From Minutocellus sp. GHC0000111 (taxonomy: Eukaryota), in contig OZ361256.1 in the NCBI GenBank assembly GCA_977018835.1, positions 2,480,001 through 2,544,000 on the forward strand: 64,000 nucleotides of DNA, given 5' to 3'. Shown in pieces: positions 966 through 42,630 of this stretch (position 1 is its first letter; the number at the start of each line of letters is the position of its first letter). Below the pieces are notes generated by a model that ran no database searches, was not told where the DNA came from, and was given only the letters and a program-made list of their open reading frames with translations. Made by a program: the position numbers and the translations under genes.

Positions 966-1283
966 GGTGGGGGTGCTTGGCTATGCTGTATTGGTAGTCA
1001 GGTGTAAAGTGATGGCATCAGAAGATCGGCGGCCATCACCATTTTTGTTCTTTGGCGCCGCATCGACGCGCCTCGCTTGATGGCTCTTCTAACTGTGTCA
1101 CGGCCAGTGACACGAAATGTGAGATGGCTGTGCGACCTGATTTCAGGGTCATTAAAAATCCACGTTATTTTAATAAGCAAGAGAGATTCGATTCGCGACG
1201 CCGGCGAAGGCAAGATGGCTGTGGCGAGCCAATAATTACGTGCCGGTATCTTGCCTCGGCGCTCCACCAGCAGCCGAGCCGCC

Positions 1284-2930: not shown

Positions 2931-3050
2931 TTCGAAATGCTAAACTTGGCAGGGCAAGAATCAAACTCTATGAAGCCTCACAAAACATCAAAAACTCATT
3001 GACCCCGGCCTATTTACAATAAGTTAAGTTAGACTGTGAAGTGTCAGTGG

Positions 3051-15154: not shown

Positions 15155-15448
15155 AGTAAGCATATGTAGACTCTACGTAGATCTACACGTAGCTAGATCT
15201 AGATCTACGTGTAAGTGCATAAGTCATCAGGTCGGTGTTGAGTGTGTGTGTGTGGCTACGGCCAACCTCTCGCAATGTCAGTAGAACCCGGATGTACGTC
15301 CCAGCATACAGGGGCCCCTGTTGTGGCTGCTGCTGCGCAGTCCAACTCATTTATCCGACCGCGAAACGAATACAGAGGAGAGTATCACCTTCAGCAAATC
15401 TTGATCGTCGCTATCACAAAACGTATCTCTTTCCATAAATCCTTCACC

Positions 15449-16339
15449 ATGGCGTCTAGATGCTGCTCGAATTGCAATCGCTGGCTGAGCAAGGACTGCT
15501 ACAGCAAGACGCAGTGGACCAAGGGGGCCGGTATCTCCAGATGCCGAGGTTGCCTGAACAACGGCGGCACGCTCGACCCTACCCGCACCGCGCGGCAGAA
15601 CAACTCCAGCAAGGCGGCATTCACAACTCAAGCTTTGAGCAACCCCTTCGCGCAGGGTGCATTCCGTTGGGTGGCGAGGGGACGCTACACCGAGGGCACC
15701 AGGGCTGGAGAGGAGTGCGTGTGCAAATGGTTTAAGACGGGAGGCGTCGTGGAGAGTCATTTCTTCGACACGGACATTGCCACGGTGGAGGAGGCTGTCC
15801 GCCTCATCACGAAGTGGAATGCCCGCGGTCTGGTAAACAAAATGGTCCAAGTCAATCGTCCAGAGGTGTGGACATTTGAATAATACTCGGGAGCCCAGTG
15901 GGCCGGAAAGAAGGTCCTGCAGGAGCCATTCATCCAGAACTATCAAAAGTTCAACTCCAACACCGGGTGGTCCGACGACACGCTGCCGTGGCCACGTGTC
16001 ATGCAGGCCCTCTCGCACTTTTCGTACCATGTGTCCAACGGAGAGTCCGTCCTGTGCGACTTGCAGGGGGGCTTCTACAGTGATGGCGTCGTCCTCACTG
16101 ATCCCGTCGTGATGTCGACGTCGCGGCGATTCGGCCCAACTGACCTTGGAGCGGCGGGCATCAGCTCCTTCTTCGCGCACCACACTTGCAACGAGTATTG
16201 TAGATCCGAATGGAGAAAACCTCGTAACCAGACTCCATACTATACTGCCACCGCTGGAACCACGATGGAACAGGTTCCGACCCACCATTCCCGTCCCAGG
16301 ATGACGCTGAACTATCTTGGATCAATTCAAGAAAGATAA
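15449..16339 (+). pseudogene. Alpha-kinase (eEF2K/MHCK family) with N-terminal Stc1-like zinc finger; one in-frame TAA at 15881-15883
   Basis: FAQGAFRWV, CVCKWFK, then TFE*YSGAQWAGKKVLQEPFIQNYQKFNSNTGW, QALSHFSYH, LCDLQG, LTDP, FGPTDLG, HTCNEYC, all in one frame. Confidence 0.85.
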
Positions 16340-20752: not shown

Positions 20753-20840
20753 ATGAGAGAAAAATTACGAGCGGGTGCTGCGAACGTGCGAACCTGCCAG
20801 GAGCGAACCCTCTCGACGGCCAGACCGGCAGAGTGGGGGG
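20753..20840 (+). pseudogene. TAZ: Detached 5' coding end of tafazzin (MREKLRAGAANVRTCQERTLSTARPAEWG), separated from the rest of the gene by the retrotransposon
   Basis: ATG at 20753 is open up to the element boundary. Joining to 29342 gives ...AEWG-LICGATAATTFVGAWYY if the G6 run is G5. Confidence 0.65.
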
Positions 20841-20887
20841 CGATGACACATCGAACACAGTGCCTCCCTCCGCTGATTCTCCCAACT
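20841..20887 (-). repeat. Split direct repeat B2 (element 3' terminus)
   Basis: 47 nt, 45/47 identical to 21174-21220. Confidence 0.9.
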
Positions 20888-20889
20888 TG

Positions 20890-21173
20890 CGGTAAATGAA
20901 ACTTAACTTTTCTTAGACGGGTTTGAGGGAATTTAAAAAACTAACTTACTGCTGAGAGAGAGAGAGAGAGAGAGACAGGCTCTGGGAGCCGGTACTGTAA
21001 GCTGACTTAGCAATTGCAACGGCAGCAATCGCAGATGGTTGTGGCTTGGTCAGTTGAGACGAGAGGAGGCGAAGGTGGTGGTCAGCAGAAAAACTGGGCA
21101 CTGCAGGAATGCAGTTTTAGTGCCTGCTGCTAACCACCGTCGCCAGCTCATCCCCACCGTGCGGCACCCACAA
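20890..21173 (-). repeat. Split direct repeat A2 (contains a (GA)n tract)
   Basis: Near-identical to 29071-29341. Confidence 0.92.
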
Positions 21174-21220
21174 CGATGATACATCGAACACAGTACCTCC
21201 CTCCGCTGATTCTCCCAACT
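21174..21220 (-). repeat. Split direct repeat B1, abutting A2
   Basis: cgatgatacatcgaacacagtacctccctccgctgattctcccaact. Confidence 0.9.
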
Positions 21221-21255
21221 CTGTGCAACTTAGTAGAACATGAAATGCAGTTTAA

Positions 21256-22596
21256 CTACGTGAACTGGAGCTGGCATTGGCGGTAAATGAAACTTCTTAG
21301 AGGGTGAGGTCCCTCTCCCCCTCCTCCTTTCCGCATAGCACAGATCGGCCAACAACAATGTGTGTCGTGCTTAGGTGAACAGGGCGAAGGGGGGCATTGG
21401 AGTCCCGAAGCCGGCATTTCGGCCAATGCTGTTGATGCAGGCGAAGGATTGGCGGCAATTTGGGGTCCTTGGGTCTTCGCGATGGCTCGTCGAGTGTGCG
21501 TGGGGCACGTTGAAAAGAAGGAACCTCGTTGGATCATGCGTGTGGAGACTCCGGATGTAAATTCTTGGACCTGGCGACGGATGTACTTGAGGAAGGCGTC
21601 ACTGGACCACCGCCCTACCAGCATGATTGTGTGCGTGGGAACATCATTTAGACACATTGCCATTGCTGCTCCGCTGCGAATGGAGTGTGATCCGAATTCA
21701 GAGGGATGGCAGCCCAGGACGTCCTCTCCAATCACTGTGGCCGACGCTCGGATCTTGTCAACTATTCGGGTGGCAGGAATGTGTTTTAACACGCCGTTGA
21801 CCACGAAGGCATTTACCGGCGTGTCGCTGTTGGTACTAGGGCACCCTAGGACTCGTTTCACCAGGGCAGCCCAAGCTCGAACTGGGCAGAGGGTGGCGTC
21901 GTGGGTGCAGTGTTGCGTAATCGTGACGTCACGCTCGTTGTGACACATGCGCCGTCGGCCGCGGTAGAACTGGACATTGCGGAGGCGGAGCAGCTTGGTC
22001 CTGCGCTCACCGCTGACTCTGGAGCATTCGCAAGACCTCATCGCGAAGAAGAAGGCGCCGACGGCTAGTTGCCCGACTGCACGGTCCTCTTCCGTTTCCC
22101 TGACGGAGGCGATCTCTCGGAGGAGCCGGCAGGTGATCGCCTTCTCCGGCCGCTCGGCCGGGTCGGACTGGCTGTGTCCTCGGAACTGCCGCTGTAGAAG
22201 GAATGAAGGCTGGCCGATGTCGTCTTTCCCTGGGTCCCTGCGCTGGTTGTGCCCCCCGGAAGGACGAGCATGCACATGTGAGACGGTGTCTCGGACTGTC
22301 GACGCAGCCAGTCGCGAAAACTTTGGCCCCGAAAAGCTGGCCTGTCGGACGGCGTGGGCAAAGGCGCCGAGAATGACTGTTCGGTCTCGGGGTGACACCT
22401 TGTCGAGGAAGACGTCGTCCCCGGTCCCGATGAGCTGCAGGAACTCAGTCCAGCGGCTCCACGCGAGAGCGTGCTTCTCGGCAGTGGCCGTTGTAACTGC
22501 TTCCTGACGGGCAGCGTCCGCGCCTGCGAGACAATCCAGGAAGTAATCTCGTTGGGCAGTGGTGCAATCCTGAAATTTGAGGGAAGAAGCTGACAT
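21256..22596 (-). CDS. Tyrosine recombinase of the retroelement (degenerate)
   Basis: GAFFFAMRSCE (R), LCPVRAW, GSHSIRSGAA (HxxR), GRWSS (W), FLKYIR (catalytic Y). Overlaps the end of pol. Probable short in-frame deletion before ERDVTITQH. Confidence 0.9.
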   Translation of the reverse strand: MSASSLKFQDCTTAQRDYFLDCLAGADAARQEAVTTATAEKHALAWSRWTEFLQLIGTGDDVFLDKVSPRDRTVILGAFAHAVRQASFSGPKFSRLAASTVRDTVSHVHARPSGGHNQRRDPGKDDIGQPSFLLQRQFRGHSQSDPAERPEKAITCRLLREIASVRETEEDRAVGQLAVGAFFFAMRSCECSRVSGERRTKLLRLRNVQFYRGRRRMCHNERDVTITQHCTHDATLCPVRAWAALVKRVLGCPSTNSDTPVNAFVVNGVLKHIPATRIVDKIRASATVIGEDVLGCHPSEFGSHSIRSGAAMAMCLNDVPTHTIMLVGRWSSDAFLKYIRRQVQEFTSGVSTRMIQRGSFFSTCPTHTRRAIAKTQGPQIAANPSPASTALAEMPASGLQCPPSPCSPKHDTHCCWPICAMRKGGGGEGPHPLRSFIYRQCQLQFT

Positions 22597-24775
22597 TCGG
22601 GAGATGGTAGAAGCAATTTCGTGAGGTCAGCATCATCAGAGAGATCGGTGTCACGAGAAAGAGAATCGGCCTCCGGATTGCGCTTCCCCTGGAACCACTG
22701 TGAGCACAGCATGGTGTTGGTCTCGATGAGCATGTCGGCTAGTTTCCGCGCCGTGGCCAGCTTGACCGCTACGTCGGCATCCTTCTCGCCGTGAGACACG
22801 AAGTTCGACTTCCTGAGCCATCCCTCGGCCGTGGTGCTGTCGGTCCCCGACAGCACGCAGGAGAGGGTTGGTAGGTTGCCCTCGATGTGGTCGATCCATG
22901 GGCCGATGACGGCGGCGAGGAATTCCAGGCAATTGAGGGTGAACCGGCCCCATGGCTCCTCGGGGAGGGCAAATCTCCACGCTCTGCCGGATGAGGACCA
23001 TCCGCCGATGCCGTGCTCGCAGGCGTCACTCATGCACTCGTGGGTGGGGCAACGGCACGTGAGGAGGTTCATGCTCATGCCATCGGCGGCCCTTCGGAGG
23101 AAGCGGAGCCACAGGTTGAGGTCTTCTGCATCCTCAGAGTCGAACCGTTGGCGGCCGTGGCGGCGGGCCTTCCAGAGCCGATCCCGAAGGCGGCTGAGGA
23201 AGTGTCGTGCGGCTGGAGTGATGCATCCGACGTGGTTTAGCCTTCCGACCAAGGTGTCCAGCTCTGATCTGGTGGCGCCGCGGGCTCTGAGGAGCCGAAG
23301 CATGTCATCGCGCCAGGCCAGGTGCTTGCTCCAAGGGAGCCTCAGCAGGAGCCGCCGGGCATCAGCATCCCACCCCAAGAGACACAGCACTTCGGAAGGC
23401 GTCCCCTCGGCGAGCAGCTTCTTGATGGAGGCAAGGTCATCTCTGGGCAGTGGCTCGCTGTCGGATGCCGGTCGGCCAAGCGCGTGAATGGCGAGGAGGG
23501 TGGCAGCGGATGTCCGATCCTTGTTGTCGCCCAGGTCAGGGGCTGCGGCGATGAGGTCATCGATGTGCGGCTCGACGATGCCATCCTTGTTGTCGGGAAG
23601 GGTCACGATCATGTCCAGGGCCGGCGCGAACGGTGCATCGTCGCCCTCCACCTTGGGGCGACCCAAGTGCTTCTGCTGGGGGCTGTGGAGCTCTGACGGG
23701 TCCCAGTCCGAGCATTGCAGGAGGGCCCTGGCCAGGTCGGCCGCCGATTCGGATGCATTGCACCATTCGCTCGGGCAAGGGCGGCCGCCGAAAGTCAGCC
23801 GGAGGGACATGAGGGCAACGCCATCCAGGGTGGTGATCGTTTTGACGGCCGTGCTGGGAGCCAAGTGGGCCCGGCGACACGCAGCCTTGAAATCGACCTT
23901 CTGCAGGAGGATGGGAGCACGGGGATGCTTGTGACGGGCGTCTGCGATGTGGTGGATCACTCGCCGGAGGGCATGGCCGAACACCACTGGCTGGTGGTCC
24001 TCCATGCGCACTCTGTTGTTGACGGACCGTGCGGCACCGATCTCGAAGGATTGGTCGTGAGTCAGGCGGTCCTTGGGCATGATCTCGCCAGCCTCGCTGA
24101 TCGTGTTCTGTGCTGCCAAACCCATCGGAGCCACCTCCGCTCCAGGAATGAGGGGCGCGACCTTTGCTGGCAGAGGGAGGGCGAAACCGCGGGTCACGTC
24201 GTCGAGAACTTGGTCCTTGAGCACCTCCGGCCTGTCCCTGGCCGATTTGTGGTTGCCTCGGCCGATGTTCTTTATCACGCTGTCCAGTCTGCTTTCGTCG
24301 CTCACCGGATCGAGGGCCCAGTCGGATCCACTGTCGAGAATGGAGCGGAAGCGGGGCCACAGCGGGTGCCGGCCAAGAATCGGCTCCAGAAGACTCAGGT
24401 CTCTGAACTCCGATCCCCCGGTTGGAGTGGCGACCCGCCCTGCGCCTCGAGTGCCCTGCTCAGAGAACGATCGCATTTCTTGAGGACCGACCAATTGTGA
24501 GCGGCGGCCTCCGTCAAGAGCTCAAATCTGAACTCCGTGGGCTTCGGTGTGGCCGACGGGGACTCGACTGCTAGTCGGACGCACTGTGCCAAGGTGGAAA
24601 CATCGAAGATGGGCTCTAGTTCCCACACGTGGAGTTGCATGAGGCGAGAAAAAGGTGAGACATGCACATGCTGCACGTTCACGAGCATGCGGGTCTGTCC
24701 GACCGTGGTGGGCCCATTGTGGGCGCTGGGCTGCCCCCCGTTTGTTGTAGGTGTTTCTTCACCTGTTGGTCTCAC
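22065..24775 (-). CDS. Reverse transcriptase / RNase H of the retroelement (frameshift near 24415; catalytic motifs mutated)
   Basis: GNHKSA, KDRLTHDQSF, KVDFKAACRR, LRLTFGG, PHIDDL (YxDD position), LGW, GRLNH; RNase H SDACEHGIGG, NCLEFLA, TDSTTA, NPEADSLSR. Confidence 0.9.
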
Positions 24776-25277
24776 TTGCCATTTTGGCGTGTCGGTTCTG
24801 CTTCCTTGCTGTGCGTAGGGGAACCAGGGGGGGACTGTGCTTCGGGTTGGGGCTGCTTGCCTAGGAGATCCTTCTCTCGCTGGCCTAGCCGGTCGAAGAG
24901 GTTGTCGGTGGCTTCCGCACCGCCAGCGTTAGTGGTGCTGGAGCCAGAGCCTGAGATGCTGTTGTCGGCGCAGGCATCACCGCTGGTGTTAGGGGGACCA
25001 GGACCCGACCGAAGGTCACTGCTAACGCCTCGGCCTTCTGCTCCGGTGTTAGGGGCACCGGAGAGCCTGGATTGGTTGCTGATGTCGTTGCGACCGCACA
25101 CGCCGGATTTTGGGGTGCCGGACAACCTTGGGCGGCTGGAGCCACCGGGGCGGATCGACGCCGACGTGTCTGGCTGCACTCGACGGCGCGCTTGGAGGGA
25201 CGAGCTCGGCCGGCTGGCCGAGATGTTTCTCCAGCATCCTCCGAGGGTGGGCCACGCCTCCGTGCCCACCCGATCCG

Positions 25278-27333
25278 TCATTCCTCCGCCTCCTCGTGCT
25301 TCCGATCGCATTTCTCGACGCACTGCTCGACGGGTCCTCTCTCCGATGCCTTAAGAGGCCTCTTGACATGCGACTTCTTGAGCTTGCACGAGGATCCGGC
25401 GCCGCAGACACCTGTCAGGATGAATGGAGGGCAGAATTTACGGCCATTAATTTCAGGTCTGTCCTCATAGGGCTCGGATTTCTTGCCATGCCGTTTTGCA
25501 AAGTTGCCGGGGTTGACATCGAACGTGACGAAGTGTTCGCACTGGTGGGCTCTGCCGCTGGCGCCGCCCGTCTTTTGCTTCTTTTTCGGACTGGTTCTTG
25601 GCTCTGATTTGTCGGAGTCGGAATCCGAGGAAGGGGTGGGAGCGTCGGCCGATTGGACGAGCTTGATGTGGCTGGGGTAGACGAAAGGATTCTGAGTCTT
25701 CATTGTCTTTTTGGACTCGTCGGCCATTGAGAAGCAAGAGAGGTCGTTGCCGGCGTCGTCGGGGGAACGGAGACAAGCTTTCCAGAATGCATGGATGGAG
25801 GCGTCGACATTGTGGAACATCGCCAGCCAGAACTTCTCGCCATGGCTCTCGGCGACGTCGCGGTGCTGGTCCTCGTGTGTCTTCATGTGACTGAGGACCC
25901 TGGCGACGTAGCGAGCGGGCTCGGAATCCTCTCCGGCAAGGAAGGAAATGCCAGCGCCGAAGGCCGAGATGTGACGTTTGGCACCGTCGCACTCGGTTGG
26001 GGACCGGTAGTTCTGCTTCAGAAGAGCCTTCACCTGAGTCGAGGTATATCCTTTCTTTTGAGAGGCGGCGAGGTGCAGGGGCGCATTGCTGCTGCTGGAG
26101 TTTGCCGGGCTAAAGGCGAAGACAGAGAAGCCATCGTAGATTTTCTTGTCGCTCTTCCCGAAGCCAAAGAGGCGGACGTAAGTGGTGAGGCCCTGGAGAG
26201 ATGTCCTGACTCCGGTCTTGCCCTTTACATGCAGCTCGAGGCCGACGGCTGCTTGCGTGAGGTTTGACTCTTCCAGCAGTGCTTTCAATCCTTCGGGAAG
26301 ATTCGAGTCGATCGCTGCTACATCATCGTCATGCTCGGTCGAGACCCGGCAGAAAGCGGCACAGGCCTTGAGGATGGCGCCATTCATCGAGTGCTTCTTG
26401 TCGACCTTGTCAGTGTAGGCCATGACTGCGCCGGTGAGGGAGGATGCTTCGGACGCGGCCCTAGTCATGGCGTTGGCCGCGGTAGTGACTGCAGAGTCGG
26501 TCGGGGCGCCACCGGCTGGTGGTCCGTCGCCACTGGCGCCAGTGATGTGCCGAGCGTGCATCTCACGGGCGCATGTCTTGAGAGCCGGGTCCGTCCGTCG
26601 TTGGGTGCAAGCTGACGGCCGGGATGTCACCTTGCTCGGACGTGGCGACGAACCACAGCCACTTGACGACGTGTTGAACAGCCTCATTGGAGCGAAGACC
26701 TGCTGCGCCATGACCCTCGTCGTCACCGCTGTCTGATGCGTCGTCGCTGCCGGCGTCCTCATCCAGCCGACGTTTGATGGCGGACAGGATGGCCCAAGGC
26801 GATGCCTCGTGCTCTTCCAGAACGTTCTGCAGAATCGAAGGTGGCAGTAGCACAAGGGACTTAAACTTCGTGGAGGCACTCCGGTGGCGGGTGTTGGAGC
26901 CTTCCTGGGTGAGACCGGTTAGGGCGGCTTCTGACGGTGCCCCCAGTGTGGCTTCCACCGATGGGGCTAGGACCTCCTTGTACCGCAAGAGGCTAGGTTG
27001 GGCCAACGCCATTGCCGGGGCTGCATCGTCGATCCCGAGGAGCCCACCCCACCTGAGGTCGGGCTGCATGGTGGTGCCTCCCTGAGCCACGGCATGGTGA
27101 ATCACCACGACTTTCCCTTCTGGATGGTGGGCCAGCATGGACAAACCCTCGGCGTCGCGGATTTGCTGCTGGATCGCTCGGGCATGGCTCTGGACCACAG
27201 CGGCCGTGGGGTCGGTTTCACAGACGTTGTCGGCGAGGAATCTCTGGAAATCTCGAGCTACGGCGGCGTCGGCCCCGGCCGGTGTCTCTTGTGCCAGCAG
27301 GACTGACTTCCAGGTGTTGAAAGATGAAGCCAT
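25278..27333 (-). CDS. gag-like ORF with C-terminal C-x7-C-x5-C-x5-H zinc knuckle; frameshift from a 4-nt duplication near 26590
   Basis: ORFs 26563-27342 and 25278-26879 join at HPTTD/PALKT. FCPPFILTGVCGAGSSCKLKKSH lies immediately upstream of pol. Confidence 0.7.
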
Positions 27334-27349
27334 GGTGATCAATGCTCGA

Positions 27350-28903
27350 TCACCTTGCCTGTCGCCTTCGGCGTCGGTCCTCTCGGCGCTGGATGTGGTT
27401 CAGATCGGCCTTGAGGGTGAGGATGCGGTCGGCGATGTTGGGCTCTCCAAAGGCGGATAGAAGGATGTTGAATGCCTGACGCGGTGGCTCTGATACCAAA
27501 ATATCGGCGGTGATATCTCGCAGGCGGACAGGTGCCTCGAGATCGTCGGGGCGCCGGTGAATTGATGCTCTTGGCCAGACGCGGTAGTGGGCACCCTCCC
27601 AGCGATTTGGATCGGCCGTGTCGTCTAGCCACCTCGGATAGACTCGATGGCAGGTGCCTGCCCAGCGGTGTGAGGGGGACGCCGTTAGGTCTGCCAGCCT
27701 TCCCCAGTATTCGTACGGGTTGACCTCCACTCGGTGTCCAAGAGGATTGCTGTCAGGCCGAGTGTGTCGGAGTCGAGCGCTGGTGAGGCTCTCGAATCCA
27801 CTGTCCCAGTTGATAATAGCTTCAGTGAGTTGGTCCGGTCGTAGGTGCTGCCGTCTCTGGAACGGGTGCGGCGAATCCAGCGGGAACTGGGTGATCAGGG
27901 CGAAAGGGCCGATGAGATCTCCTCGCTCCAATGCCACACTGACGCCAGCCCGCTCGGTTCGGTCGTGTGCGTCACGTGGGTAGAAGAGTGGCCTTACCTC
28001 CCACTCGAAATAAGTGAGCGGCAGCGTTGGTGGAAGCTCGCTCCCCCGTGAACCTGTGCAAGCGTACGGTGTCGGCTCTAGAGGTCTGCCCTCTCTGGCC
28101 GCGATGCGCCGTCTTTCTTTTCGGTCGGCCTGGTAGTGGAGGATGCACTGCGTGAGCCGGCAGAGCTGGGGCCAGATGCAATGGTGTTGCCGCGCTGCTG
28201 CTGCCGATGCCTCCGGACACCTTCGCCCCCGATGCTGTTGAACCACGACGCCTCCGTCTGCCCGTGGCAGTCGGTGCAGTGCACTGCTCAGGTCCAACTC
28301 AGTTGCCGTCTCGTGTGCCCGGCGGATCTCAGGCTCGGTAAGGCGCGTGGCTATCAGCCAGATGTTGACGAGGTACGTGGGCCAGTCCGGTGACACCAAG
28401 AAGGCTTGTTGCTCGAGGTACTCGGCGACCAGACCGTGCGCTGCTGGAGTGAGGTGTGAAACGGCTGCTGCTGGGGATGGCTGGTACCCCGTGGCTCTCG
28501 ATGGGAGGTGGCCTGTGGCGCGCTCGACGAGATCGGTGAGGTACTCGGTAACGTCGATTCGGCCCTCGGCAAAACTTTTCCACCAATCCAGTGAGTCTGT
28601 GGTCAGTCTCTCGGACGACGCCCTGGCTGTGAAGAAACTTCTGCGCCCGGGCCGAATCTGACGTCTGAGTCTGTCCCAGCCTCGTGGAAGGTCAGGAGAG
28701 TCTCCTCGGACGATGAGGTCTCTTGCCACTCCGAACAACACGTGATCCAGTTCCGGTCGATCTGGTTCGGCCATGCACTGTTCTGCCGTCGTAGAGACTG
28801 GTATCGGATCTACGTGCACTATCAACGGAGCTGAGCCGTGGCCGTTTGACTCCGGAGTCGACTGCGGTCTCTGGACTAACAGCAGTGGTGGTGTGTCGGC
28901 CAA
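27350..28903 (-). CDS. Additional 5' ORF of unknown function inside the retroelement
   Basis: 517-codon open frame between A1 and gag, same orientation as the other element ORFs; TTG start, first ATG about 43 codons in. Confidence 0.55.
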   Translation of the reverse strand: MADTPPLLLVQRPQSTPESNGHGSAPLIVHVDPIPVSTTAEQCMAEPDRPELDHVLFGVARDLIVRGDSPDLPRGWDRLRRQIRPGRRSFFTARASSERLTTDSLDWWKSFAEGRIDVTEYLTDLVERATGHLPSRATGYQPSPAAAVSHLTPAAHGLVAEYLEQQAFLVSPDWPTYLVNIWLIATRLTEPEIRRAHETATELDLSSALHRLPRADGGVVVQQHRGRRCPEASAAAARQHHCIWPQLCRLTQCILHYQADRKERRRIAAREGRPLEPTPYACTGSRGSELPPTLPLTYFEWEVRPLFYPRDAHDRTERAGVSVALERGDLIGPFALITQFPLDSPHPFQRRQHLRPDQLTEAIINWDSGFESLTSARLRHTRPDSNPLGHRVEVNPYEYWGRLADLTASPSHRWAGTCHRVYPRWLDDTADPNRWEGAHYRVWPRASIHRRPDDLEAPVRLRDITADILVSEPPRQAFNILLSAFGEPNIADRILTLKADLNHIQRREDRRRRRQAR

Positions 28904-28940
28904 TAATTACGAACTCGTAGAGTAGCACAAACCTAATGCT

Positions 28941-29070
28941 AAAACTAACTAACTACTGAGAGAGAGAGACAGGCTCTGGGAGCCGGTACTGTAAGCTGAC
29001 TTAGCAATTGCAACGGCAGCAATCGCAGAGATGGTTGTGTGTGTGTGGCTTCTTGCTTGGTCAGTTGAGA
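28941..29070 (-). repeat. Partial tandem copy of repeat A
   Basis: aaaactaactaactactgagaga...ggtcagttgaga, with slippage insertions relative to about 29109-29225. Confidence 0.85.
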
Positions 29071-29341
29071 CGGTAAATGAAACTTCTTAGACGGGTTTGA
29101 GGGAATTTAAAACTAACTAACTACTGAGAGAGAGAGAGAGACAGGCTCTGGGAGCCGGTACTGTAAGCTGACTTAGCAATTGCAACGGCAGCAATCGCAG
29201 ATGGTTGTGGCTTGGTCAGTTGAGACGAGAGGAGGGGCGAAGGTGGTGGTCAGCAGAAAAACTGGGCACTACAGGAATGCAGTTTTAGTGCCTGCTGCTA
29301 ACCACCGTCGCCAGCTCATCCCCACCGTGCGGTACCCACAA
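29071..29341 (-). repeat. Split direct repeat A1 (element 5' terminus)
   Basis: Near-identical to 20890-21173. Confidence 0.92.
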
Positions 29342-30484
29342 CTCATATGCGGTGCCACCGCAGCCACGACCTTTGTAGGTGCGTGGTACTACCGCCCCGT
29401 GGCTGATTTCTCCACAGACGGCACCGGTCCACGTCGCGACGCGGAAATCTTCTGCTCGGAGACCAACCCGTACATCCGAATGCACACTCCGCCGATATTG
29501 GAGGCTGCCCGAACTCTGTCGATTGGATTCACCACCATTGCCATACGATTATTTATCAACTCATATGGGAGCTTTGATATCGTCGACGATGACAACTATC
29601 AAAACTTTGTACAGACTGTTTTGGGCGAGGGGCGGGAAAACTCCCGGGGGCTCATCACTGTGTCCAACCATCGGAGCTTGTTTGACGACCCAGGTGTCAT
29701 GTCGGGCATATTGCCTTGGTGGATCACCCTGCGGCCCAAGTACAACCGTTGGGGGATCTGTTCGCAGGAGTACTGTTTCAATGATGTCCTGCCAGGGCTG
29801 ATCAAGGGATACATCGGTGCTGGCCAAGTCCTGCCGATATGTCGGGGAAAGGGGGTGAATCAAAAGCTACTGTTGGACTTTGCACGTCATCTGGCGGCAG
29901 GCGAGTGGTGTCACATATTCCCCGAGGGCGGCGTTTGGCAGCTCAAGGAGCTGGGAGGCCGGCGGGATATGGAGGGATCCTACGGCAGAGGTCGAGTGAA
30001 TGGGCCTGGCAAGTTGCGATGGGGCGTGGGGAAGCTCATTGCACATGCGCCGGTGAGACCTCGCGTTGTCCCCTTTGCTCATGCCGGCATGGAGAATCTG
30101 CTTCCTCAGGACCCCGAGAGTGGGATTACCATGCGCAAACGAAATATCATTGGAGGGGATCCTTTGCGAATATTGGTGCGATTTGGCGAGGAACTTCATT
30201 TCGACGATCTGATCGAAGAACACGAGGCAAAGCATGGCAAGTTGTGGACCTATGAGGCCACCACCGAATCCAAAAAGGAGGAGGACGATATCCGATACGG
30301 TGGATTGGGCGGAAGCAATCAGCGAGGCGAATTCCACAATCGATGGGATTCTTCGCCCGAAGAAAAGATACTGTACAGCAAGATTGCGTCTCGGATAGAG
30401 GAGCATCTGGACAAACTCACCAAGGAGGTTGTGGCCGAGCACGCTCGCAAGGGTGAGGAATTACGGATACAAGAGGGGAGGTGA
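29342..30484 (+). CDS. TAZ: Tafazzin (phospholipid transacylase), main body downstream of the insertion
   Basis: LITVSNHRSLFDDP (HxxxxD), RWGICSQEYCF, GQVLPICRGKGV, WCHIFPEG, WGVGKLI. Confidence 0.88.
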   Translation, partial: LICGATAATTFVGAWYYRPVADFSTDGTGPRRDAEIFCSETNPYIRMHTPPILEAARTLSIGFTTIAIRLFINSYGSFDIVDDDNYQNFVQTVLGEGRENSRGLITVSNHRSLFDDPGVMSGILPWWITLRPKYNRWGICSQEYCFNDVLPGLIKGYIGAGQVLPICRGKGVNQKLLLDFARHLAAGEWCHIFPEGGVWQLKELGGRRDMEGSYGRGRVNGPGKLRWGVGKLIAHAPVRPRVVPFAHAGMENLLPQDPESGITMRKRNIIGGDPLRILVRFGEELHFDDLIEEHEAKHGKLWTYEATTESKKEEDDIRYGGLGGSNQRGEFHNRWDSSPEEKILYSKIASRIEEHLDKLTKEVVAEHARKGEELRIQEGR

Positions 30485-31005: not shown

Positions 31006-31471
31006 GATGTGAGCGAGAAATAATGAGCCGGGCATGCAGAGGCTACATGTAGAGTCAATATAGACTCTACATGTGTGTGCATGCGCGAGAAATTTCCATC
31101 GGTTCCCTGTGCGAGGTCCGGTTGAGGGAAACGAGCCGCCGGCAGTAGGTCTACGAGCATGTGAAATCTAATTCAAGTAGACCAAACCATCATCAATCCT
31201 GTCTGTCAACGGCAAGCAAGAGATCTCTGTTGGGTCGATTTGATATTTTTGATACGATACAATGTTTAGCCACTATTGCTCGGTCAAAACATTTTGTAGG
31301 CACTAATGATCATAGATGTCCAGCGGTCTGTGTGTCGGCGATCACTCGGCCGCCCGGCACTTGATGTATCCATCCGAGGGATGGCTTGATCCATCCATAG
31401 CCACTCTCTGTGCTAAGATACGCACGCACGTCGTGCCAAAGAAGACACCGCACTTTGCGAACGAACACCGC

Positions 31472-33763
31472 ATGAATGATAAGATGATGCCGGCCAACGG
31501 TGGTCGTGGCGGTGTCGGCGGCCGCGGTGGCCGCGGTGGCCGAGGCGGTCGAATGACGATGGCCGGCCGAGGCGGAGGCCCGGGAGGTCGAATGATGATG
31601 GCAGCAGGCCGAGGCCGAGGACCAGGAGGTCGCATGATGATGACTGGCCGAGGCCGGGGACCTGGAGGCAGAGGGCAACAGCAGCAGCACATGATCCAGC
31701 GCGTTCCGGTAATCCCCACCCGGCTGCACCACCTGCCCCGCCACCTCCTGTTCCGCGTTGCCAACTTTTTGGACGAGACCGACCGCGTCCACGCCCTGCA
31801 TCACGTGGGCATCCCCTACCGCCCCCCTCAGCCCGCCAACAACGGCCAGGAGGGCCAAGGCGGCCAGGGCGGCCAGCCGCAGGCGGCCCAACCGGTGACC
31901 AAGCAGCAGAAGAAGCAGGCCGAAATTCAGCGTCCGCGACAGGAGCGGATCCAAAAGAAGATGGCCGAGCAGCAGCAGAGGCGGAAGGAGGCCGTCGAGG
32001 CCGGGATGCCCAGTCAGGAGGGACTGGCCCAGAGCGGGATGAGCATGGGCGTCGACACGACGGGCGTCGCCGCGGCCATCGAGGCCAATGCCAGGGAGAT
32101 GACGGACATGGTGGCCCAGAGCTTCCACCTGGAGGACGACGGTGGTGGCGATGATGATAAGAGTGATAAAGACGATGAGAATATGGAGGTTATTGACGCC
32201 GATAACAATACCGGCGTCGATGCAGCAGCAGAGGAAAAGAAGAAGGAGAAGGAGATTGACGTCAATGAGAAGGGCATGCCCAAGAAGGAGGAGAAGGAGG
32301 AGGAAAGAGTGAGCGAAGAGGATGCCGCCGCTGCCAAGGCGCTCGTCGCGGCCGCCCGGGAGGCCGTCAACCAAACCGAGGAGGATGCAGACGCAAACGC
32401 CAATGCCAAGGCCGACGACAAGGCCAATGCCGACGCCAACGACCAGAAAAAGGACGCCAACGACAACACTATGCCAACAAAGGGACCCACCAAGCCGGCA
32501 CCGCTCCATGCCCCTCCTGATCCCGTCACCCTTCTGTCCCGCCTCAACACCCGGCGGCTCTATCAGAGGGCCAAGCACTACAAGTCCCACCCGGAGACGT
32601 ATGCCGCCAACAACATGGTGGCCGTCCCGACCAACAGGACCGTGGAGGAAATTGCCAACGACGATTGGGCCTACCTCATGGAATGGCAAAAGTGGCGCAA
32701 CCGGGCCATCATCCTCCGATACAAGAAGGACAAAAAGGGGGAGGACATCGACGAGGCCCAACTCCAACGGGATTGCGATCTCATTTCCAAGCCCAGAATT
32801 CCGACCAAGCACGAGCTCCTCATGTTCAGCCCGTGTCCCAAGGCCGTCACCGCGTTGGCCTCGTACCCCCGCAGCGGCAACTCCCTCTGCCGCACCCTCT
32901 TCGAGCGCTGCGCCCTCCGCGTGTCCGGCAGCGACATGCGCGGCGGCCTCATCGAGCACGACCTCGTCGGCGAGGCGGCCGTTTCGGCCCAGCGCGTCCA
33001 GTACGTCAAGACGCACTACCCCGAGCGCCGGGGGGCGCCGCAGTTCCGTGCCCGCCGCGTCGTCCTGCTGGTGCGCAACCCGTTCGATGCCATCCAGTCG
33101 TACTGGAACCTGATGGTGACCAACACCCACACCAACACGGCCGAGTTCAGCGACGAGCAGAAGGAGCTGGCCAAGAAGCTCTTTGCCGACGTGGCCCGGA
33201 AGGAGATTCAGGTGTGGAAGGACTTTCACGAGTTCTGGCTGTCCAAGGACATTGATCTGCTGTTGGTGCGGTACGAGGACCTGATCCGTAACACCTCCAA
33301 GTGCGTGAGGCGCATCATTGCCTTTACGCTCGAGGTCAAGAACATGGCCACCTTCTTCGGCCCACGAATCGATCGGGTCATCAACGAGGAGGACTTGGAG
33401 AAGCTGGGTTCGTACAAGCCCCGCTCCGGTGGCATCGGCAAGTCCCTGAAGAATTATCCCCCGGAGCTGATACAGGAGATGATGTCCGGCCTTTCCGAGA
33501 TTTTGACCCGGATGGGGTACGACGAGAATTTCCTCATCCCCGACAAGGAGCTGTGGGACAAGACCTTGCCCCTCGACGGATATGCCTGCCAATGGAACGG
33601 GACGAAGCCCGCCGAGGGAGAGGAGGAGTCCACCATCGTGATCAACGGCGGGCCGCTCGTCCGCACGCCCGAGTTGGACACCAACTGGCGCGAGGTGAAG
33701 AAGTCTTTGGGTCTGTTGAAGGATGTCAAGTGCGACTGCGCCCGTTGTCGTGCCGGGAGGTAG
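31472..33763 (+). CDS. Sulfotransferase-domain protein with N-terminal RGG repeats, F-box-like motif and acidic linker
   Basis: LASYPRSGNS (5'-PSB), VKTHYP, LLVRNPFDAIQSY (3'-PB), VRYEDL; N-terminal GRGG repeats; LHHLPRHLLFRVANFLD. Confidence 0.82.
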   Translation: MNDKMMPANGGRGGVGGRGGRGGRGGRMTMAGRGGGPGGRMMMAAGRGRGPGGRMMMTGRGRGPGGRGQQQQHMIQRVPVIPTRLHHLPRHLLFRVANFLDETDRVHALHHVGIPYRPPQPANNGQEGQGGQGGQPQAAQPVTKQQKKQAEIQRPRQERIQKKMAEQQQRRKEAVEAGMPSQEGLAQSGMSMGVDTTGVAAAIEANAREMTDMVAQSFHLEDDGGGDDDKSDKDDENMEVIDADNNTGVDAAAEEKKKEKEIDVNEKGMPKKEEKEEERVSEEDAAAAKALVAAAREAVNQTEEDADANANAKADDKANADANDQKKDANDNTMPTKGPTKPAPLHAPPDPVTLLSRLNTRRLYQRAKHYKSHPETYAANNMVAVPTNRTVEEIANDDWAYLMEWQKWRNRAIILRYKKDKKGEDIDEAQLQRDCDLISKPRIPTKHELLMFSPCPKAVTALASYPRSGNSLCRTLFERCALRVSGSDMRGGLIEHDLVGEAAVSAQRVQYVKTHYPERRGAPQFRARRVVLLVRNPFDAIQSYWNLMVTNTHTNTAEFSDEQKELAKKLFADVARKEIQVWKDFHEFWLSKDIDLLLVRYEDLIRNTSKCVRRIIAFTLEVKNMATFFGPRIDRVINEEDLEKLGSYKPRSGGIGKSLKNYPPELIQEMMSGLSEILTRMGYDENFLIPDKELWDKTLPLDGYACQWNGTKPAEGEEESTIVINGGPLVRTPELDTNWREVKKSLGLLKDVKCDCARCRAGR

Positions 33764-38500: not shown

Positions 38501-39189
38501 TGGCGCCGGCGTTTGTGTTGTGGCCGTCGTTGTCGCTAATTGTAGTAGTTGTGTTGTAGCAGCAGCAGCAGCAGCAGTGGCAGCAGCAGCACGTACGTCT
38601 GGCGCCCCTGACGGTGTCGATGTCGATGTGCTGCCCACCATTGCTGCTGATGATGACACGTGCTGCTCTTACTTGTCACCACCACTGCTACATGTGTGTG
38701 TATGCCTACCAAGACAAGTAGTTACAGCAGCAGCATGGACGTCATTGCAGGCAAAGGGATCTCATGACGGCTGTAGGTGGTGCTCCTCTCTCATCATCTT
38801 GCCACTCGTTCTCATCATTGAGCCAAAAAGTTTTGTTTCGGATCTTGTGAAAATCCGCTACATGTTTGGGTTGGGAAGAACCAGTATCCCCCCTATTATA
38901 GTGATTTGCTGTCATTTTGTTAGAGGGAATTTGAGGGAATCGGTTCTAATTTCCCCTCTTTGATTTTGCGGGGGTTGTTTCCCGAAAGTTGTCTTCGTCT
39001 TTTCGTCGTCGGGTTTGAGCTCACGACGACGACGGAGCACATCTTGTGTAGGCGTACCGAGGGTAAGCAAAGCCAAGATACTAGCTAGTACGCACACTGT
39101 GACTTGCACCAAAAGCGTGTGGGTTGCTGCAATAAAGCATCCTTTGCTTCAGACATTTTGGTTACAACCATTCGATCGACTGGAAAGCC

Positions 39190-42100
39190 ATGAGCGGCAC
39201 GGCCAGGAAGAGGAGGCAGCAGCGCCAGTCCCCGCCGGTGTCCTCCGATGACGACGATGATGATGATGACGATACTCATGAGGAAGAGGCAATGGAGGAG
39301 GAGAATTCCGACGAGGACAGCGGCAGCTCTGGCGACGACGAGTCTGAAGGCGAGGAAGACGAGGAAGACGCTGAAGATGACGAGGATGCTGAAGATGCAA
39401 ATGCGCAAATGCTGAAGAGCCCGCCGGGCTCCGGACCCGGCTCCGGCATGCGCCTCCGGTCGGGACGGAAGAAGCGCCGCCGGCGCAGCGCCGACGGCGG
39501 TGCTGCCGGCAATGCTACTGCTAGTACTGCCTCTGCCGCCGCTAGTACTCCGCGCAGGAGGGCAGCGGCCGCCGCGGCCATGTCGGCCAGCAGCAGGTCC
39601 CGACCGACGACCCGCAACACCCCGTCCCGCACTGCCCAGGCGGCAGCGGCGGCTGCCGAGTCGTCGACCAAGAAGCGGAAGCGCGGAACGACCACGGCGC
39701 GCAAGGCCCGCAAGACGGTCCGGATTGCCATCGTGGGTGATGAGGAGGAGGAGGAGGAGTCCGACTCCAGCAGCAGCGATGATTCGGAGGAGGAACAGGA
39801 GGAGCAGCAAAAGCCCAAGGCCAACGGCCGCCAAAAGGCGGGCCGGAAGCCGGCCGCCAAGCGACCCCGCAGGGGCGATGCGGATGATAACGACGACGAA
39901 GAGGAAGAAAGTGATGAGGAGATGGAAGAAATTGCCGCCACGTCCGAAACCCAACGGCTCCGTGCCGAGCAGACCGATTTGCGGGACCGCGAGGCCACGC
40001 GACAATTTCAGGTGCAGGACCGGTTGGAGTCCAACCGCGCCCAGCTGGCCACCGTCCGTGGACAGCGTTTGGTCCAGCAGGAGGAGCAGGAACCAGCACC
40101 ACCCGCCTTTCTCAGTCCACCGGCCGACCGCGCCGCGCTGGCCGAAGCCGCCGGGGCCGACAGCGAGCTCGACGAGGACGGTGGTACCGACGGGGACACC
40201 AGTCCCCTCCAGTCGGTCAGCCTCAAGCTGCCCCCCCGCACCGCCAGGAAGGCTCTGGCCCAGACGGGTAGCAGTGCCAGTCGCAGGCCCCGTAGGAACG
40301 GACGCGCTGCCGGTACGTCCAGCACTCACCTGTCCGGTCGAAAGGATCCCGTCGCCGCCGAGGCTGCCGCGACGTCCGGCAGGGCCGACCCGGTGGCCGC
40401 CGAGGCCGAAGCCGAGGCCGACGGTGATGGCGACGAGAGCGAAAGCGTCGAGGCTGCTGCCACCACATCCGCAGCCGCATCTCGTCCCGGCCTGCTCCGC
40501 CGGGCGTCGTCGGGCGTTGCCGCCCACCTGTGGAAGTTCACCGATACCATCCGCCCCACGGTCCGTCCCGGCGTGGGGAGGGTGGTGGTGCCGGAAGCCG
40601 AACGGCCGACGCCCGAGCAGGCTCGTGGTGCCGCCCATGGCGGTAGCGCCGAACTCGGTGCCACCAGTACCGGTACTACCGCCACCGCGACAGCGCAGCA
40701 AGCAACCCCGCGTCGCCGAGGCCTTCGGCACTATCCCGTGTTTTGGCTCCTGGCGTGGCTGGTCCTGCACACCGTCGTGGCCGTGCTGTCCGGTGGGGCC
40801 GTCGTCCGGCCCCTCTGGTCCTCCCTGCCGGAGACCAGCCAGAGGAGGTTGCACTTCTACCGATCGCTGATGGGACAGTACATTCCCCGCGGTGGTGCAG
40901 GCACCGCCATTGGCAAGGTGACGATTCCGGATGATGTGGAATTGGACGGTGAGGGCGAAAATGACAACGACGAGGAGGAACCCGCCCTGGAGCCCGAGGT
41001 CATCGAAAAGGTCGTCGAGGAGATCGTCTACGAAGACGAGCCAAATGACGACCTGTACCAGGCCGAGCTGCAGGCGCGAAAGGATGCAGCCATTGCTGCC
41101 CAGCGGCAGAAGGACCAGGAGGCCGCCGATGTCGCATCGGCCGCTGCGTTGGCCGCGCAAGAGGCCAGGAAGAAGCAGAGGGATGAAAGAAAGAGGATGA
41201 AGAAGAAGGAACAGGCAGCAGGAGAGGTTGATGCGGACGTGCTGCGCAAACTTCGAACGGCAGTAGATATCAGCAACAAGGAGGCCAAGAGCGTCGCGAA
41301 TCGAGTTGATACCCAGGCCAAGTCGTATGAGGAACTTGTTGCCGAAGGTGACGGCGCCGTCGCCGCACGTGGCACTAAGCTGCAGGCTTGGGAGGAGGCT
41401 CTGGAGAAGGCTGAGCAGGCTATTCAAAAGCTTGAGGCTGACATGGCTGGGGCGGCTTCCAACGGTTCTGCCGCCAATGTCGTCGAAGCGCTGAACATGT
41501 TGGAAACTGCATCTGTTCTCCCCGTCATGACTTCTCTCCTCGATCCTCGCACCGTGCCCATCCCCGGAGAAGCCTGCAACGGAATGGAATATGTTCCTGT
41601 TGGCGATGGCGTCACGGAGCTAGATGATAGCGCCACATCGACCTCTTCCACAGTAGCCCGCCGGCAAGCCGAGGAAGATGCCGAGGATGCGCCCATTCAA
41701 ATGGATGATTTGGAGCAAGCCAAGAAGGATTTGGTGCAGCTCGCCGATTCCACGGCGGAAAACATTATGAGCGACGATGGTATTGATGCGGTGCGACACT
41801 GGCTCAACAAGGAAATTAAGAACGCTGGCTTGGATCTTACCGCCAAGCTTGATAAGGAGGAAGAAGATACACATACTCTCAACAATGAACAGCCGGCACA
41901 AGCCGATGATGAAGTGGACGCCGCTGGACTCTCAGCGCAAGCCGTGAAAGAAATCATCAGCCACCGCCTTGGGCTTGATATTGCCGATGGCGACGGCATG
42001 TTCGATTTTGCATCCATTCGATCTGGCGCCACGGTAGTTTTTGCTGGCCCAAGGCGCACATCACCATCTCTTAAGGACAACCTACCTCTCCTCAATCGCC

Positions 42101-42630
42101 TTCTTGCTTCTGCCAAGCTTCGTTTCTATGGCCATCCTCCCGAGGCCGCCCTCAACCCCACGTTTCCTCCTAATGCACTCGGCCAGTGCTGGGCATTCGA
42201 AGCTGGCAAGGGGCCGTCGCCTGATGATGAATCCGGCAATGCCGTCGGCAGATATGCTACTCTTACCATTAATCTTTCCGAGCCTGTTGAAATCAAATCA
42301 GTAACCATGGAACACGCCCCGAGAGACCTCACTCCAACACCTGAGACGGCGATTCGCGATTTCCGTGTAATTGGCTACGAAGAAAGCGATGCCAAGGGCA
42401 CGCCGATTCCACTGGGATCGTTCAGGTATGAAATTGATGGGCCAAGGACCCTGCAAGAGTTTGAGGTGGAAAGTGAAGAAGGTGACGGTTTGCCGCCATT
42501 GAAGTCGGTAACACTCGCGATTGATTCCAACTGGGGTGCCGATTACTCCTGTTTGTATCGCTTCCGAGTCCATGGGGATCGATCAGTACCACTGCCGACG
42601 AGCTCGGTCCATTCGAGCTGTGAGGAGTGA
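39190..42630 (+). CDS. SUN-domain (Sad1/UNC-84) nuclear envelope protein
   Basis: Basic/acidic disordered N-terminus, single TM (VFWLLAWLVLHTVVAVL), coiled coil, C-terminal DFASIRSGA..PPEAAL..GQCWAF..VTMEH..SNWGADYSCLYRFRVHG. Confidence 0.9.
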   Translation: MSGTARKRRQQRQSPPVSSDDDDDDDDDTHEEEAMEEENSDEDSGSSGDDESEGEEDEEDAEDDEDAEDANAQMLKSPPGSGPGSGMRLRSGRKKRRRRSADGGAAGNATASTASAAASTPRRRAAAAAAMSASSRSRPTTRNTPSRTAQAAAAAAESSTKKRKRGTTTARKARKTVRIAIVGDEEEEEESDSSSSDDSEEEQEEQQKPKANGRQKAGRKPAAKRPRRGDADDNDDEEEESDEEMEEIAATSETQRLRAEQTDLRDREATRQFQVQDRLESNRAQLATVRGQRLVQQEEQEPAPPAFLSPPADRAALAEAAGADSELDEDGGTDGDTSPLQSVSLKLPPRTARKALAQTGSSASRRPRRNGRAAGTSSTHLSGRKDPVAAEAAATSGRADPVAAEAEAEADGDGDESESVEAAATTSAAASRPGLLRRASSGVAAHLWKFTDTIRPTVRPGVGRVVVPEAERPTPEQARGAAHGGSAELGATSTGTTATATAQQATPRRRGLRHYPVFWLLAWLVLHTVVAVLSGGAVVRPLWSSLPETSQRRLHFYRSLMGQYIPRGGAGTAIGKVTIPDDVELDGEGENDNDEEEPALEPEVIEKVVEEIVYEDEPNDDLYQAELQARKDAAIAAQRQKDQEAADVASAAALAAQEARKKQRDERKRMKKKEQAAGEVDADVLRKLRTAVDISNKEAKSVANRVDTQAKSYEELVAEGDGAVAARGTKLQAWEEALEKAEQAIQKLEADMAGAASNGSAANVVEALNMLETASVLPVMTSLLDPRTVPIPGEACNGMEYVPVGDGVTELDDSATSTSSTVARRQAEEDAEDAPIQMDDLEQAKKDLVQLADSTAENIMSDDGIDAVRHWLNKEIKNAGLDLTAKLDKEEEDTHTLNNEQPAQADDEVDAAGLSAQAVKEIISHRLGLDIADGDGMFDFASIRSGATVVFAGPRRTSPSLKDNLPLLNRLLASAKLRFYGHPPEAALNPTFPPNALGQCWAFEAGKGPSPDDESGNAVGRYATLTINLSEPVEIKSVTMEHAPRDLTPTPETAIRDFRVIGYEESDAKGTPIPLGSFRYEIDGPRTLQEFEVESEEGDGLPPLKSVTLAIDSNWGADYSCLYRFRVHGDRSVPLPTSSVHSSCEE

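What the first reader, a model, noticed from the sequence alone, without database searches (positions are those of the whole stretch)
21500..25300. TpA->CpA/TpG hypermutation of the retroelement: candidate 'reverse-RIP' genome defence system
Seen: I find no TA dinucleotide between 23240 and 24272 (~1030 nt), while GC-rich host genes in the same window (gamma-tubulin, SMC5, UXS) use TAC codons freely. The 809-aa RT/RH ORF has only one Tyr, near its end. Family knowledge: positions that are normally Tyr read His or Cys, which is what TAY->CAY/TGY produces. Examples are RT YxDD = PHIDD, KAAYRR = KAACRR, LYSQWF = LCSQWF, YR MRSCEY = MRSCEC, AMAMYL = AMAMCL and VPxYTI = VPTHTI. These substitutions set the direction as TA loss. 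Inference: A:T->G:C transitions at TpA on both strands, confined to repeat DNA, are the mirror image of fungal RIP (CpA->TpA). They disable catalytic tyrosines without making stop codons, so the dead ORFs stay open. Candidate mechanisms are a TA-preferring DNA adenine deaminase, deamination of modified adenine, or pol-eta-like error-prone synthesis in heterochromatin. I know of no described pathway for this in diatoms.
Basis: partly seen in the sequence, partly recalled or inferred. Interest (0 to 1): 0.92.

Follow-up and report, generated by a model that had tools for sequence, protein, structure and literature searches.

The report
TA-erasing mutation of diatom retrotransposon copies
In this diatom, dozens of young copies of a jumping gene have each, independently and on both DNA strands, had most TA steps rewritten to TG or CA, which likely disables them; the cause is likely a host enzyme that deaminates adenine in DNA, and the pattern has been reported only once before, in an unrelated alga.

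Summary
Confirmed. 23240-24272 has no TA. It lies in an 8.5-kb Ngaro-type tyrosine-recombinase retrotransposon (20841-29342, minus strand) of a diatom. Across about 43 RT and 30 YR sibling copies, 46 of 56 common protein polymorphisms trace to an ancestral TA. At 24 unambiguous sites, 216 copy-sites became TG, 189 CA and 102 stayed TA. Copies assort independently, Illumina contigs agree, and relatives elsewhere keep their Tyr. So this is post-insertion, two-strand TpA hypermutation, about 240-fold above background, not artefact or CpG decay. It is not undescribed: the same TpA→TpG/CpA process is reported for integrated viruses in Bigelowiella natans (bioRxiv 10.64898/2026.01.13.699255). This scan has also noted it often in other diatom DNA. 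Added here: a 3' preference TAT>TAC>TAG≈TAA, sparing of the terminal repeats, and an unexplained excess of 2-4-nt tandem duplications. Likeliest mechanism: TadA/ADAT-type DNA adenine deamination (about 55%); the enzyme is not identified.

The parts
20841..29342 (-). Whole Ngaro-type tyrosine-recombinase retrotransposon, multi-copy, TA-depleted
   Evidence: Repeat layout, ORFs, depth far above the left flank in run X5
29071..29342 (-). A1 direct repeat (5' end); keeps most TA
   Evidence: 92.7% over 287 columns to A2, 17 gap columns; TA share 0.287
28940..29072 (-). Extra partial copy of the A repeat
   Evidence: 85% to 29108-29227
27350..28906 (-). First ORF, 518 aa stop to stop, function unknown, moderately TA-depleted
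   Evidence: no Pfam hit; TA share 0.132
25278..27399 (-). Two frames (26563-27399 and 25278-26918), likely one gag-like ORF broken by a 4-nt duplication at 26589
   Evidence: (table 4); no Pfam hit; 'gag-like' is inferred from position
22065..24521 (-). RT/RNase H ORF; one Tyr left; YxDD reads HIDD; N-terminus frameshifted near 24415
   Evidence: Model of intact relative P0005 (pLDDT 84) matches solved reverse transcriptases, best E 6e-10; Atlas RVT_1/RNase H
23240..24272 (.). 1033-nt stretch with no TA
21256..22626 (-). Tyrosine recombinase ORF; 4 Tyr against 11 in near-intact relative P0170; 60-nt deletion near 21935; frameshifts near 22252 and 21513
   Evidence: Atlas structure match to Phage_integrase, TM 0.67; weak PF00589 hits in homologs
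21174..21220 (-). B1 internal repeat downstream of YR; keeps two TA that B2 lost
   Evidence: (D4)
20890..21174 (-). A2 direct repeat; both isolated substitutions against A1 are TA losses (one TG, one CA)
   Evidence: Alignment
20841..20887 (-). B2 repeat (3' end); both differences from B1 are TA→CA/TG
   Evidence: D4

Best explanation
After each copy of this retrotransposon inserted, A:T pairs at TpA steps were converted to G:C on either DNA strand, independently in each copy, likely by a host TadA/ADAT-type adenine deaminase acting on silenced repeat DNA, and this would cripple the copies. Shown: TpA specificity, both strands within single copies, independent assortment, about 240-fold excess over other substitutions, 3' preference TAT>TAC>TAG≈TAA, strongest loss in the RT core, terminal repeats and host genes spared. 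Inferred: A is deaminated to inosine, which is read as G at replication; one hit destroys the TA target, so Tyr becomes His or Cys and never Arg; targeting likely follows heterochromatin or RNA guidance; the effect is likely defensive. The mutation pattern itself is about 95% certain; the deaminase step about 55%.
For: At 11 YR positions where near-intact P0170 has Tyr, 31 copies show His 82, Cys 66, Tyr 49, Gln 1, Arg 0; Arg at CGN codons is kept 643 of 651 times. 46 of 56 polymorphic sites (minor count 3 or more) polarise to TA. Strands are equal: 216:189, p=0.20, and 30 of 31 copies with 6 or more scored sites carry both kinds. Pairwise similarity SD is 0.131 against 0.130 shuffled; 191 of 211 site pairs show all four combinations. 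DNA: 30 of 36 transitions among the 40 rows shown (of 103) fit TpA, with 10 CA↔TG swaps, also seen in Illumina runs X6 and X7. A roughly 90%-identical relative in X20 has TA at 13 of its 36 shown rows. 3' context: fitted hits per A are T 1.9, C 0.8, A 0.1-0.4, G 0.05-0.24 (LRT 28-40, 3 df), and direction counts agree: T>A 22:7, C>G 21:6, C>A 22:2, T>C 97:73. An engineered TadA variant has a YAY>YAR hierarchy (PMC12528748). Mettrop et al. saw the same change arise de novo in B. natans and propose ADAT2.
Against: No enzyme was identified and no genome is held. TadA-type enzymes prefer single-stranded substrate (recalled), yet there is no strand bias. The commonest non-TA change is A→G after A (13 of 142 sites, against 19 of 274 after C and 9 of 355 after G), and 3 of the 4 common non-TA sites are AA, a WA-like tail that fits polymerase eta. 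The excess of 2-4-nt tandem duplications is not predicted by deamination alone and also occurs in repeats that keep TA. The YAY resemblance is to an engineered enzyme. Most counts come from proteins, so silent sites are unseen. One TE in one window was tested.
Confidence: 0.55

Rival explanations
1. Error-prone patch synthesis in silenced repeats by a polymerase eta/iota/theta-like enzyme puts G opposite template T, mostly after a T, and also leaves short duplications.
For: Polymerase eta mutates WA hotspots, TA→TG included (PMC7884765). AA is the top non-TA context (13 of 142 against 9 of 355 for GA, p=0.003). 20 of 20 single-codon insertions are exact 3-nt tandem duplications (chance 16%).
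Against: TA is about 80% mutated against 0.6% per copy-site for AA, over 100-fold, far tighter than a WA motif. AA against CA is not significant (p=0.44). Transversions are only 0.04% per opportunity.
Confidence: 0.2
2. A modified base laid at TpA in repeats (oxidised thymine or modified adenine) mispairs or is deaminated, giving A:T→G:C, as 5mC decay does at CpG.
For: It would explain a symmetric dinucleotide target with no strand bias. Diatom TEs are CG-methylated islands (PMC9998398), and mild CpG decay is seen here (33 of 321 sites against 20 of 657, p=7e-6).
Against: No such TpA mark is known to me in diatoms (recalled). The rate is over 100-fold above CpG decay in the same copies, too fast for passive decay.
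Confidence: 0.15
3. ADAR-like editing of the element's RNA, or reverse-transcriptase error, fixed when each copy was made.
For: ADAR favours U 5' of the edited A (as stated in Mettrop et al.); each copy passes through RNA, which would give independent patterns.
Against: It predicts sense-strand A→G only, but T→C is as common within the same copies. TAG is the most resistant context, whereas ADAR prefers UAG (recalled). A1/A2 and B1/B2, which should be identical at insertion, differ by TA losses.
Confidence: 0.03
4. Ordinary CpG decay or family codon bias gives the CA/TG polymorphism and low TA.
For: CA↔TG swaps can also come from CG; 44 of 64 multi-carrier sites fit either origin before polarising, and 2 of 56 polarise to CG.
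Against: CG o/e in the element is 0.94. Outgroups and surviving copies show Tyr/Ile/Val/Leu/Thr, not Arg/Ala/Pro. 80 of 80 JGI relatives have RT TA o/e 0.28-0.87 (median 0.56; longest TA-free run 228) against 0.12 here. Relative clusters keep Tyr 87/87, 71/71, 36/36, 31/31, 11/11.
Confidence: 0.02
5. Base-calling or assembly artefact at modified TpA sites.
For: The window's sequencing method is unknown.
Against: Illumina-library contigs (X6, X7) show the alternative TG/CA state, not TA, at the swapped sites. An ENA copy (P0126) matches the window at 22 of 22 scored sites, though it may derive from the same sample. Host ORFs are long and intact.
Confidence: 0.01

Closest known systems
TpA-specific hypermutation of integrated NCLDV/virophage DNA in Bigelowiella natans (Mettrop et al., bioRxiv 10.64898/2026.01.13.699255)
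   Same: TpA→TpG/CpA on both strands, hundreds- to thousand-fold above background, on foreign-derived DNA; its TpA-poor CDS set is enriched in RT and DDE domains; enzyme unknown, ADAT2 proposed.
   Different: Here a diatom (stramenopile), not a chlorarachniophyte (Rhizaria); a multi-copy retrotransposon near saturation, not single-copy viral DNA caught de novo. The 3' hierarchy, spared terminal repeats and micro-duplications are not in the main-text parts and passages I saw (supplements closed).
Fungal repeat-induced point mutation (RIP)
   Same: Dinucleotide-specific, two-strand transitions in repeats, independent per copy.
   Different: Opposite direction (CpA→TpA; listings); it tends to make stop codons. 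Diatoms do carry RID-related DNMT4 (PMC9998398), a lead only.
TadA-derived adenine base editors (ABE8e-YA, ABE3.1)
   Same: A→G in DNA with YAY>YAR preference, as seen here for TA.
   Different: Engineered, Cas9-guided, and they also edit CA; here CA is mutated over 100-fold less than TA.
Ngaro tyrosine-recombinase retrotransposons
   Same: RT/RH plus YR, split direct repeats A1-B1-A2-B2 with the internal repeats downstream of YR.
   Different: A diatom lineage with no Pfam hits of its own; not placed on a tree here.

Membership tests
B. natans-type TpA hypermutation | A:T→G:C transitions almost only at TpA | tested here: met
   46 of 56 common sites polarise to TA, 4 more fit TA unpolarised; other A→G 0.1-0.6% per copy-site
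B. natans-type TpA hypermutation | Both strands | tested here: met
   216:189, p=0.20; 30 of 31 copies carry both kinds
B. natans-type TpA hypermutation | Rate orders of magnitude above background | tested here: met
   About 240-fold relative to other substitutions in the same copies, a rough protein-based figure
B. natans-type TpA hypermutation | Confined to foreign or repeat DNA | tested here: inconclusive
   True in this window; no genome held
B. natans-type TpA hypermutation | Ongoing de novo mutation, in some lines only | not testable with these tools
   Needs mutation-accumulation lines
B. natans-type TpA hypermutation | Same enzyme (ADAT2/3 candidate) | not testable with these tools
   No proteome or genome of this host
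Fungal RIP | C→T at CpA, raising TpA | tested here: not met
   TpA is lost
Fungal RIP | Homology-triggered, sexual stage, RID-dependent | not testable with these tools
   The multi-copy terminal repeats are the least affected part, which does not favour simple homology sensing
ADAR-type RNA hyperediting | A→G on the transcribed sense only; UAG preferred (recalled) | tested here: not met
Polymerase eta WA mutagenesis | AA and TA both hot, with a broad error tail | tested here: not met
   TA exceeds AA over 100-fold, though AA leads the tail
Ngaro YR retrotransposon | Reverse transcriptase/RNase H | tested here: met
   Fold of relative P0005 (65% identical) matches solved RTs; Atlas features
Ngaro YR retrotransposon | Tyrosine recombinase downstream of RT | tested here: met
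   Atlas structure match to PF00589; invariant H-S-x-R, W and Y columns
Ngaro YR retrotransposon | Split direct repeats A1-B1-A2-B2, internal repeats after YR | tested here: met
   definition from PMC4157794
Ngaro YR retrotransposon | No methyltransferase domain | tested here: inconclusive
   No Pfam hit of any kind; RT/RH and YR ORFs overlap, leaving little room
Ngaro YR retrotransposon | Groups with Ngaro references on a tree | not tested
   No named references at hand

The most novel reading that the evidence does not exclude
Diatoms and chlorarachniophytes share an old SAR-lineage genome defence, an A-to-G counterpart of RIP: a natural TadA/ADAT-type enzyme deaminates TAY in chromosomal DNA of silenced invaders on both strands, kills a whole transposon burst before it has diverged 0.3%, and its repair nicks leave 2-4-nt tandem duplications as a second scar. 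It would be a natural genomic DNA adenine editor.
Probability: 0.3. Interest if true: 0.88.

Novelty: new variant of a known kind. Interest (0 to 1): 0.7.

Why it matters
It extends a mutation process known from one preprint to a second SAR branch and from integrated viruses to transposons. It also gives testable fingerprints for the unknown enzyme: TAY over TAR, no strand bias, spared termini. If a deaminase is responsible, it is a natural DNA adenine editor, of interest for genome defence and base editing. Practically, it breaks motif-based TE annotation, consensus building and copy dating in such genomes, since copies look several per cent diverged while being very young.

Tried and rejected
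No whole genome is held, so the TE/gene/intergenic scan and the deaminase search were not possible. Viral contigs: 35 pattern hits, 0 relatives. Pfam found nothing on the five element ORFs or on P0005 and P0010. PDB sequence searches found nothing significant. The single-sequence fold of P0170 was unusable (pLDDT 40). A TACG (TadA tRNA-like) preference was considered rows and was not consistent; palindromic GTAC sites vary widely, so longer context matters and was not resolved. A UV TA photoproduct was rejected because its recalled products are not TG/CA. RNA runs X6 and X7 have flat, DNA-like cover and do not show expression. X16, X17 and X19 are low-depth pieces, mostly 95-99% alike, not outgroups. 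No earlier scan notes were found on this genome or protein. Rows left out: P0013, P0166, P0142, P0293, P0289, P0296 and P0300 (short contigs) were not counted as copies; P0126 and P0169 (likely the window's own locus) were kept and dropped; only 15 of the 31 members of the P0008 cluster were listed. Read laying showed 40 of 103 and 40 of 404 difference rows, chosen by the tool.
Full report
Observation. TA occurs at 23238 and next at 24273, so 23240-24272 is TA-free; the longest host gap is 342 nt. At the TA rates of GC-rich host DNA, 1e-4 to 3e-3 such runs are expected in 64 kb. The RT frame (818 aa stop to stop) has one Tyr and the six quoted motifs are present. TA as a share of TA+TG+CA is 6/265 in the RT core, 18/199 in YR, 24/309 in the gag-like frames, 31/234 in the first ORF, and 18/77 and 25/87 in the terminal repeats, against 0.226 in relatives and 0.194 in host DNA.

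What the element is. It spans 20841-29342 on the minus strand, in the order A1, ORFs, RT/RH, YR, B1, A2, B2, the split-direct-repeat layout given for Ngaro (PMC4157794, passages). A model of the intact relative P0005 matches solved reverse transcriptases. The Atlas model of the YR relative P0170 matches Phage_integrase proteins. The host is a diatom: named gamma-tubulin hits are diatoms or Parmales, apart from one longer 69% camel record. Runs holding the stretch include sponge and marine metagenomes. In X5 the element's summed depth is about 1000-3500 against 6 for a flank contig, so it is high-copy (depth is not a copy number).

Direction and specificity. No genome was held, so I used proteins of sibling copies on ENA contigs over 100 kb, inferred from shared contig lengths to be one assembly of this or a sibling strain. 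At the 11 Tyr of near-intact P0170, 31 copies show His 82, Cys 66, Tyr 49, Gln 1 and no Arg; Arg at CGN codons is kept 643 of 651 times. With the window's likely own locus removed (43 RT and 30 YR rows), 56 sites have a minor count of 3 or more. Of these, 46 polarise to TA, 4 fit TA unpolarised, 2 polarise to CG on distant outgroups, and 4 are other A:T→G:C changes, three of them at AA. At 24 three-state sites: 216 TG, 189 CA, 102 kept, about 1.6 hits per TA and roughly 240 times the other substitutions, which total about 0.3%. CpG decay is present but mild (33 of 321 sites against 20 of 657). The RT YxDD Tyr survives in 1 of 37 copies.

Independence and strand. Over 25 binary sites, pairwise similarity among 600 copy pairs has SD 0.131 against 0.130 in shuffles; 191 of 211 site pairs show all four combinations; 30 of 31 well-covered copies carry both A→G and T→C. 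This fits one burst from an intact master followed by separate, two-strand DNA mutation of each copy. It does not fit RNA editing or spread of already mutated copies. In the window itself, both isolated substitutions between A1 and A2 and both between B1 and B2 are TA losses.

DNA check. Majority contigs of four runs, two with Illumina libraries on record, differ from the window at 103 places, 40 shown. Of the 36 transitions shown, 30 fit TpA, including 10 CA↔TG swaps. A roughly 90%-identical relative in X20 has TA at 13 of its 36 shown rows, 10 rows are swaps and 13 are other changes (the tool chose the rows, so this is indicative). All 80 JGI relatives have RT TA o/e of 0.28-0.87, and five relative clusters keep every Tyr. 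The loss is specific to this host, not to the family.

Context. Surviving TAs are rich in 3' G (51 of 116 strand-sites against 777 of 3686 in host DNA, p=6e-8) and poor in 3' T (7 of 116). A fit gives hits per A of T 1.9, C 0.8, A 0.1-0.4, G 0.05-0.24, and direction counts at mixed sites give the same order. That matches the YAY>YAR order of an engineered TadA (PMC12528748, passages). Against it, AA leads the rare tail, as for polymerase eta at WA (PMC7884765, passages), but at over 100-fold below TA.

Second signature. The window copy carries at least 10 tandem duplications of 2-4 nt relative to majority contigs. In siblings, 20 of 20 single-codon insertion sites are exact 3-nt duplications, against one single-codon deletion; about 40 of 93 frame switches are not at the window's own breaks. 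They are about as frequent as transversions, whereas indels are about 3% of substitutions in Phaeodactylum (PMC6604790, abstract and passages). Without neutral host DNA I cannot say whether this is tied to the TA process; it also occurs in repeats that keep TA. It means the frames do not simply stay open.

Mechanism. Shown: post-insertion, two-strand, TpA-specific A:T→G:C change, graded from the RT core to the ends. Inferred: DNA adenine deamination by a TadA/ADAT-type host enzyme (0.55), error-prone patch synthesis (0.2), or a modified base at TpA (0.15). Targeting through silenced chromatin is plausible, as diatom TEs are CG-methylated islands and diatoms carry RID-related DNMT4 (PMC9998398, passages), but it is untested. 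A defence role is inferred from the loss of conserved residues.

Comparison. Mettrop et al. (bioRxiv 10.64898/2026.01.13.699255; I read parts 1-3 of 5, abstract through conclusion, plus passages; supplements are closed and may hold flanking contexts) report 231 de novo mutations in two viral regions of B. natans, 230 of them A:T→G:C and all of those at TpA, and propose ADAT2. The main text does not mention diatoms. Searches (listings and abstract openings only) showed no diatom report; the library lacks most subscription papers. Earlier notes of this scan describe the same process in other diatom DNA (319 notes hold the words). They are unchecked, came after my own reading was formed, and are not counted as support.

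Verdict. A real and strong feature; a new variant (diatom, retrotransposon, added context and duplication signatures) of a once-described kind; enzyme open. Interest 0.7.

Noticed in passing
window 21513, 22252, 22583, 22631, 24415, 24624, 24734, 25186, 26589, 29126; sibling copies: Short tandem duplications of 2-4 nt: 10 clear ones in the window copy among the 12 rows shown of 57. In siblings, 20 of 20 single-codon insertion sites are exact 3-nt duplications (chance 16%), only 4 in existing repeats, against 1 single-codon deletion. No neutral host control.
   Followed up: partly
RT copies P0139, P0155, P0125, P0130, P0001: Five separate in-frame deletions of exactly three codons (9 nt); unexplained.
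   Followed up: no
window 21935-21938: 60-nt deletion in YR private to the window; P0169, otherwise identical including frameshifts, lacks it, so it is likely another haplotype or strain of this locus.
   Followed up: partly
window 20755-20840 and 29343-30484: The element may interrupt the 5' coding part of an acyltransferase (PF01553, tafazzin-like) gene: an ATG-led open stretch ends at the left edge and the acyltransferase frame resumes at the right edge.
   Followed up: no
window 21309→29094 (X6), 20858→29090 (X1), 21242→20920 (X17): Contig joints between the terminal repeats, fitting recombined, circular or tandem forms of the element.
   Followed up: no
P0014: A 46%-identical RT from another sample has Cys/His at 3 of 6 conserved Tyr columns, the only one of 112 relatives with more than one; possibly another host with the process.
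   Followed up: no
L044:9-1172: Related RT fragment with CG o/e 0.18 and CA/TG 1.61, i.e. strong CpG decay without TA loss.
   Followed up: no
window 15242-16339, 31316-33763, 39136-42630, 49989-53768, 62360-63232: Ordinary host genes: alpha-kinase-like, sulfotransferase, SUN-domain-like, myosin, and a protein with an AFAP plastid-targeting motif (labels recalled except the sulfotransferase).
   Followed up: no
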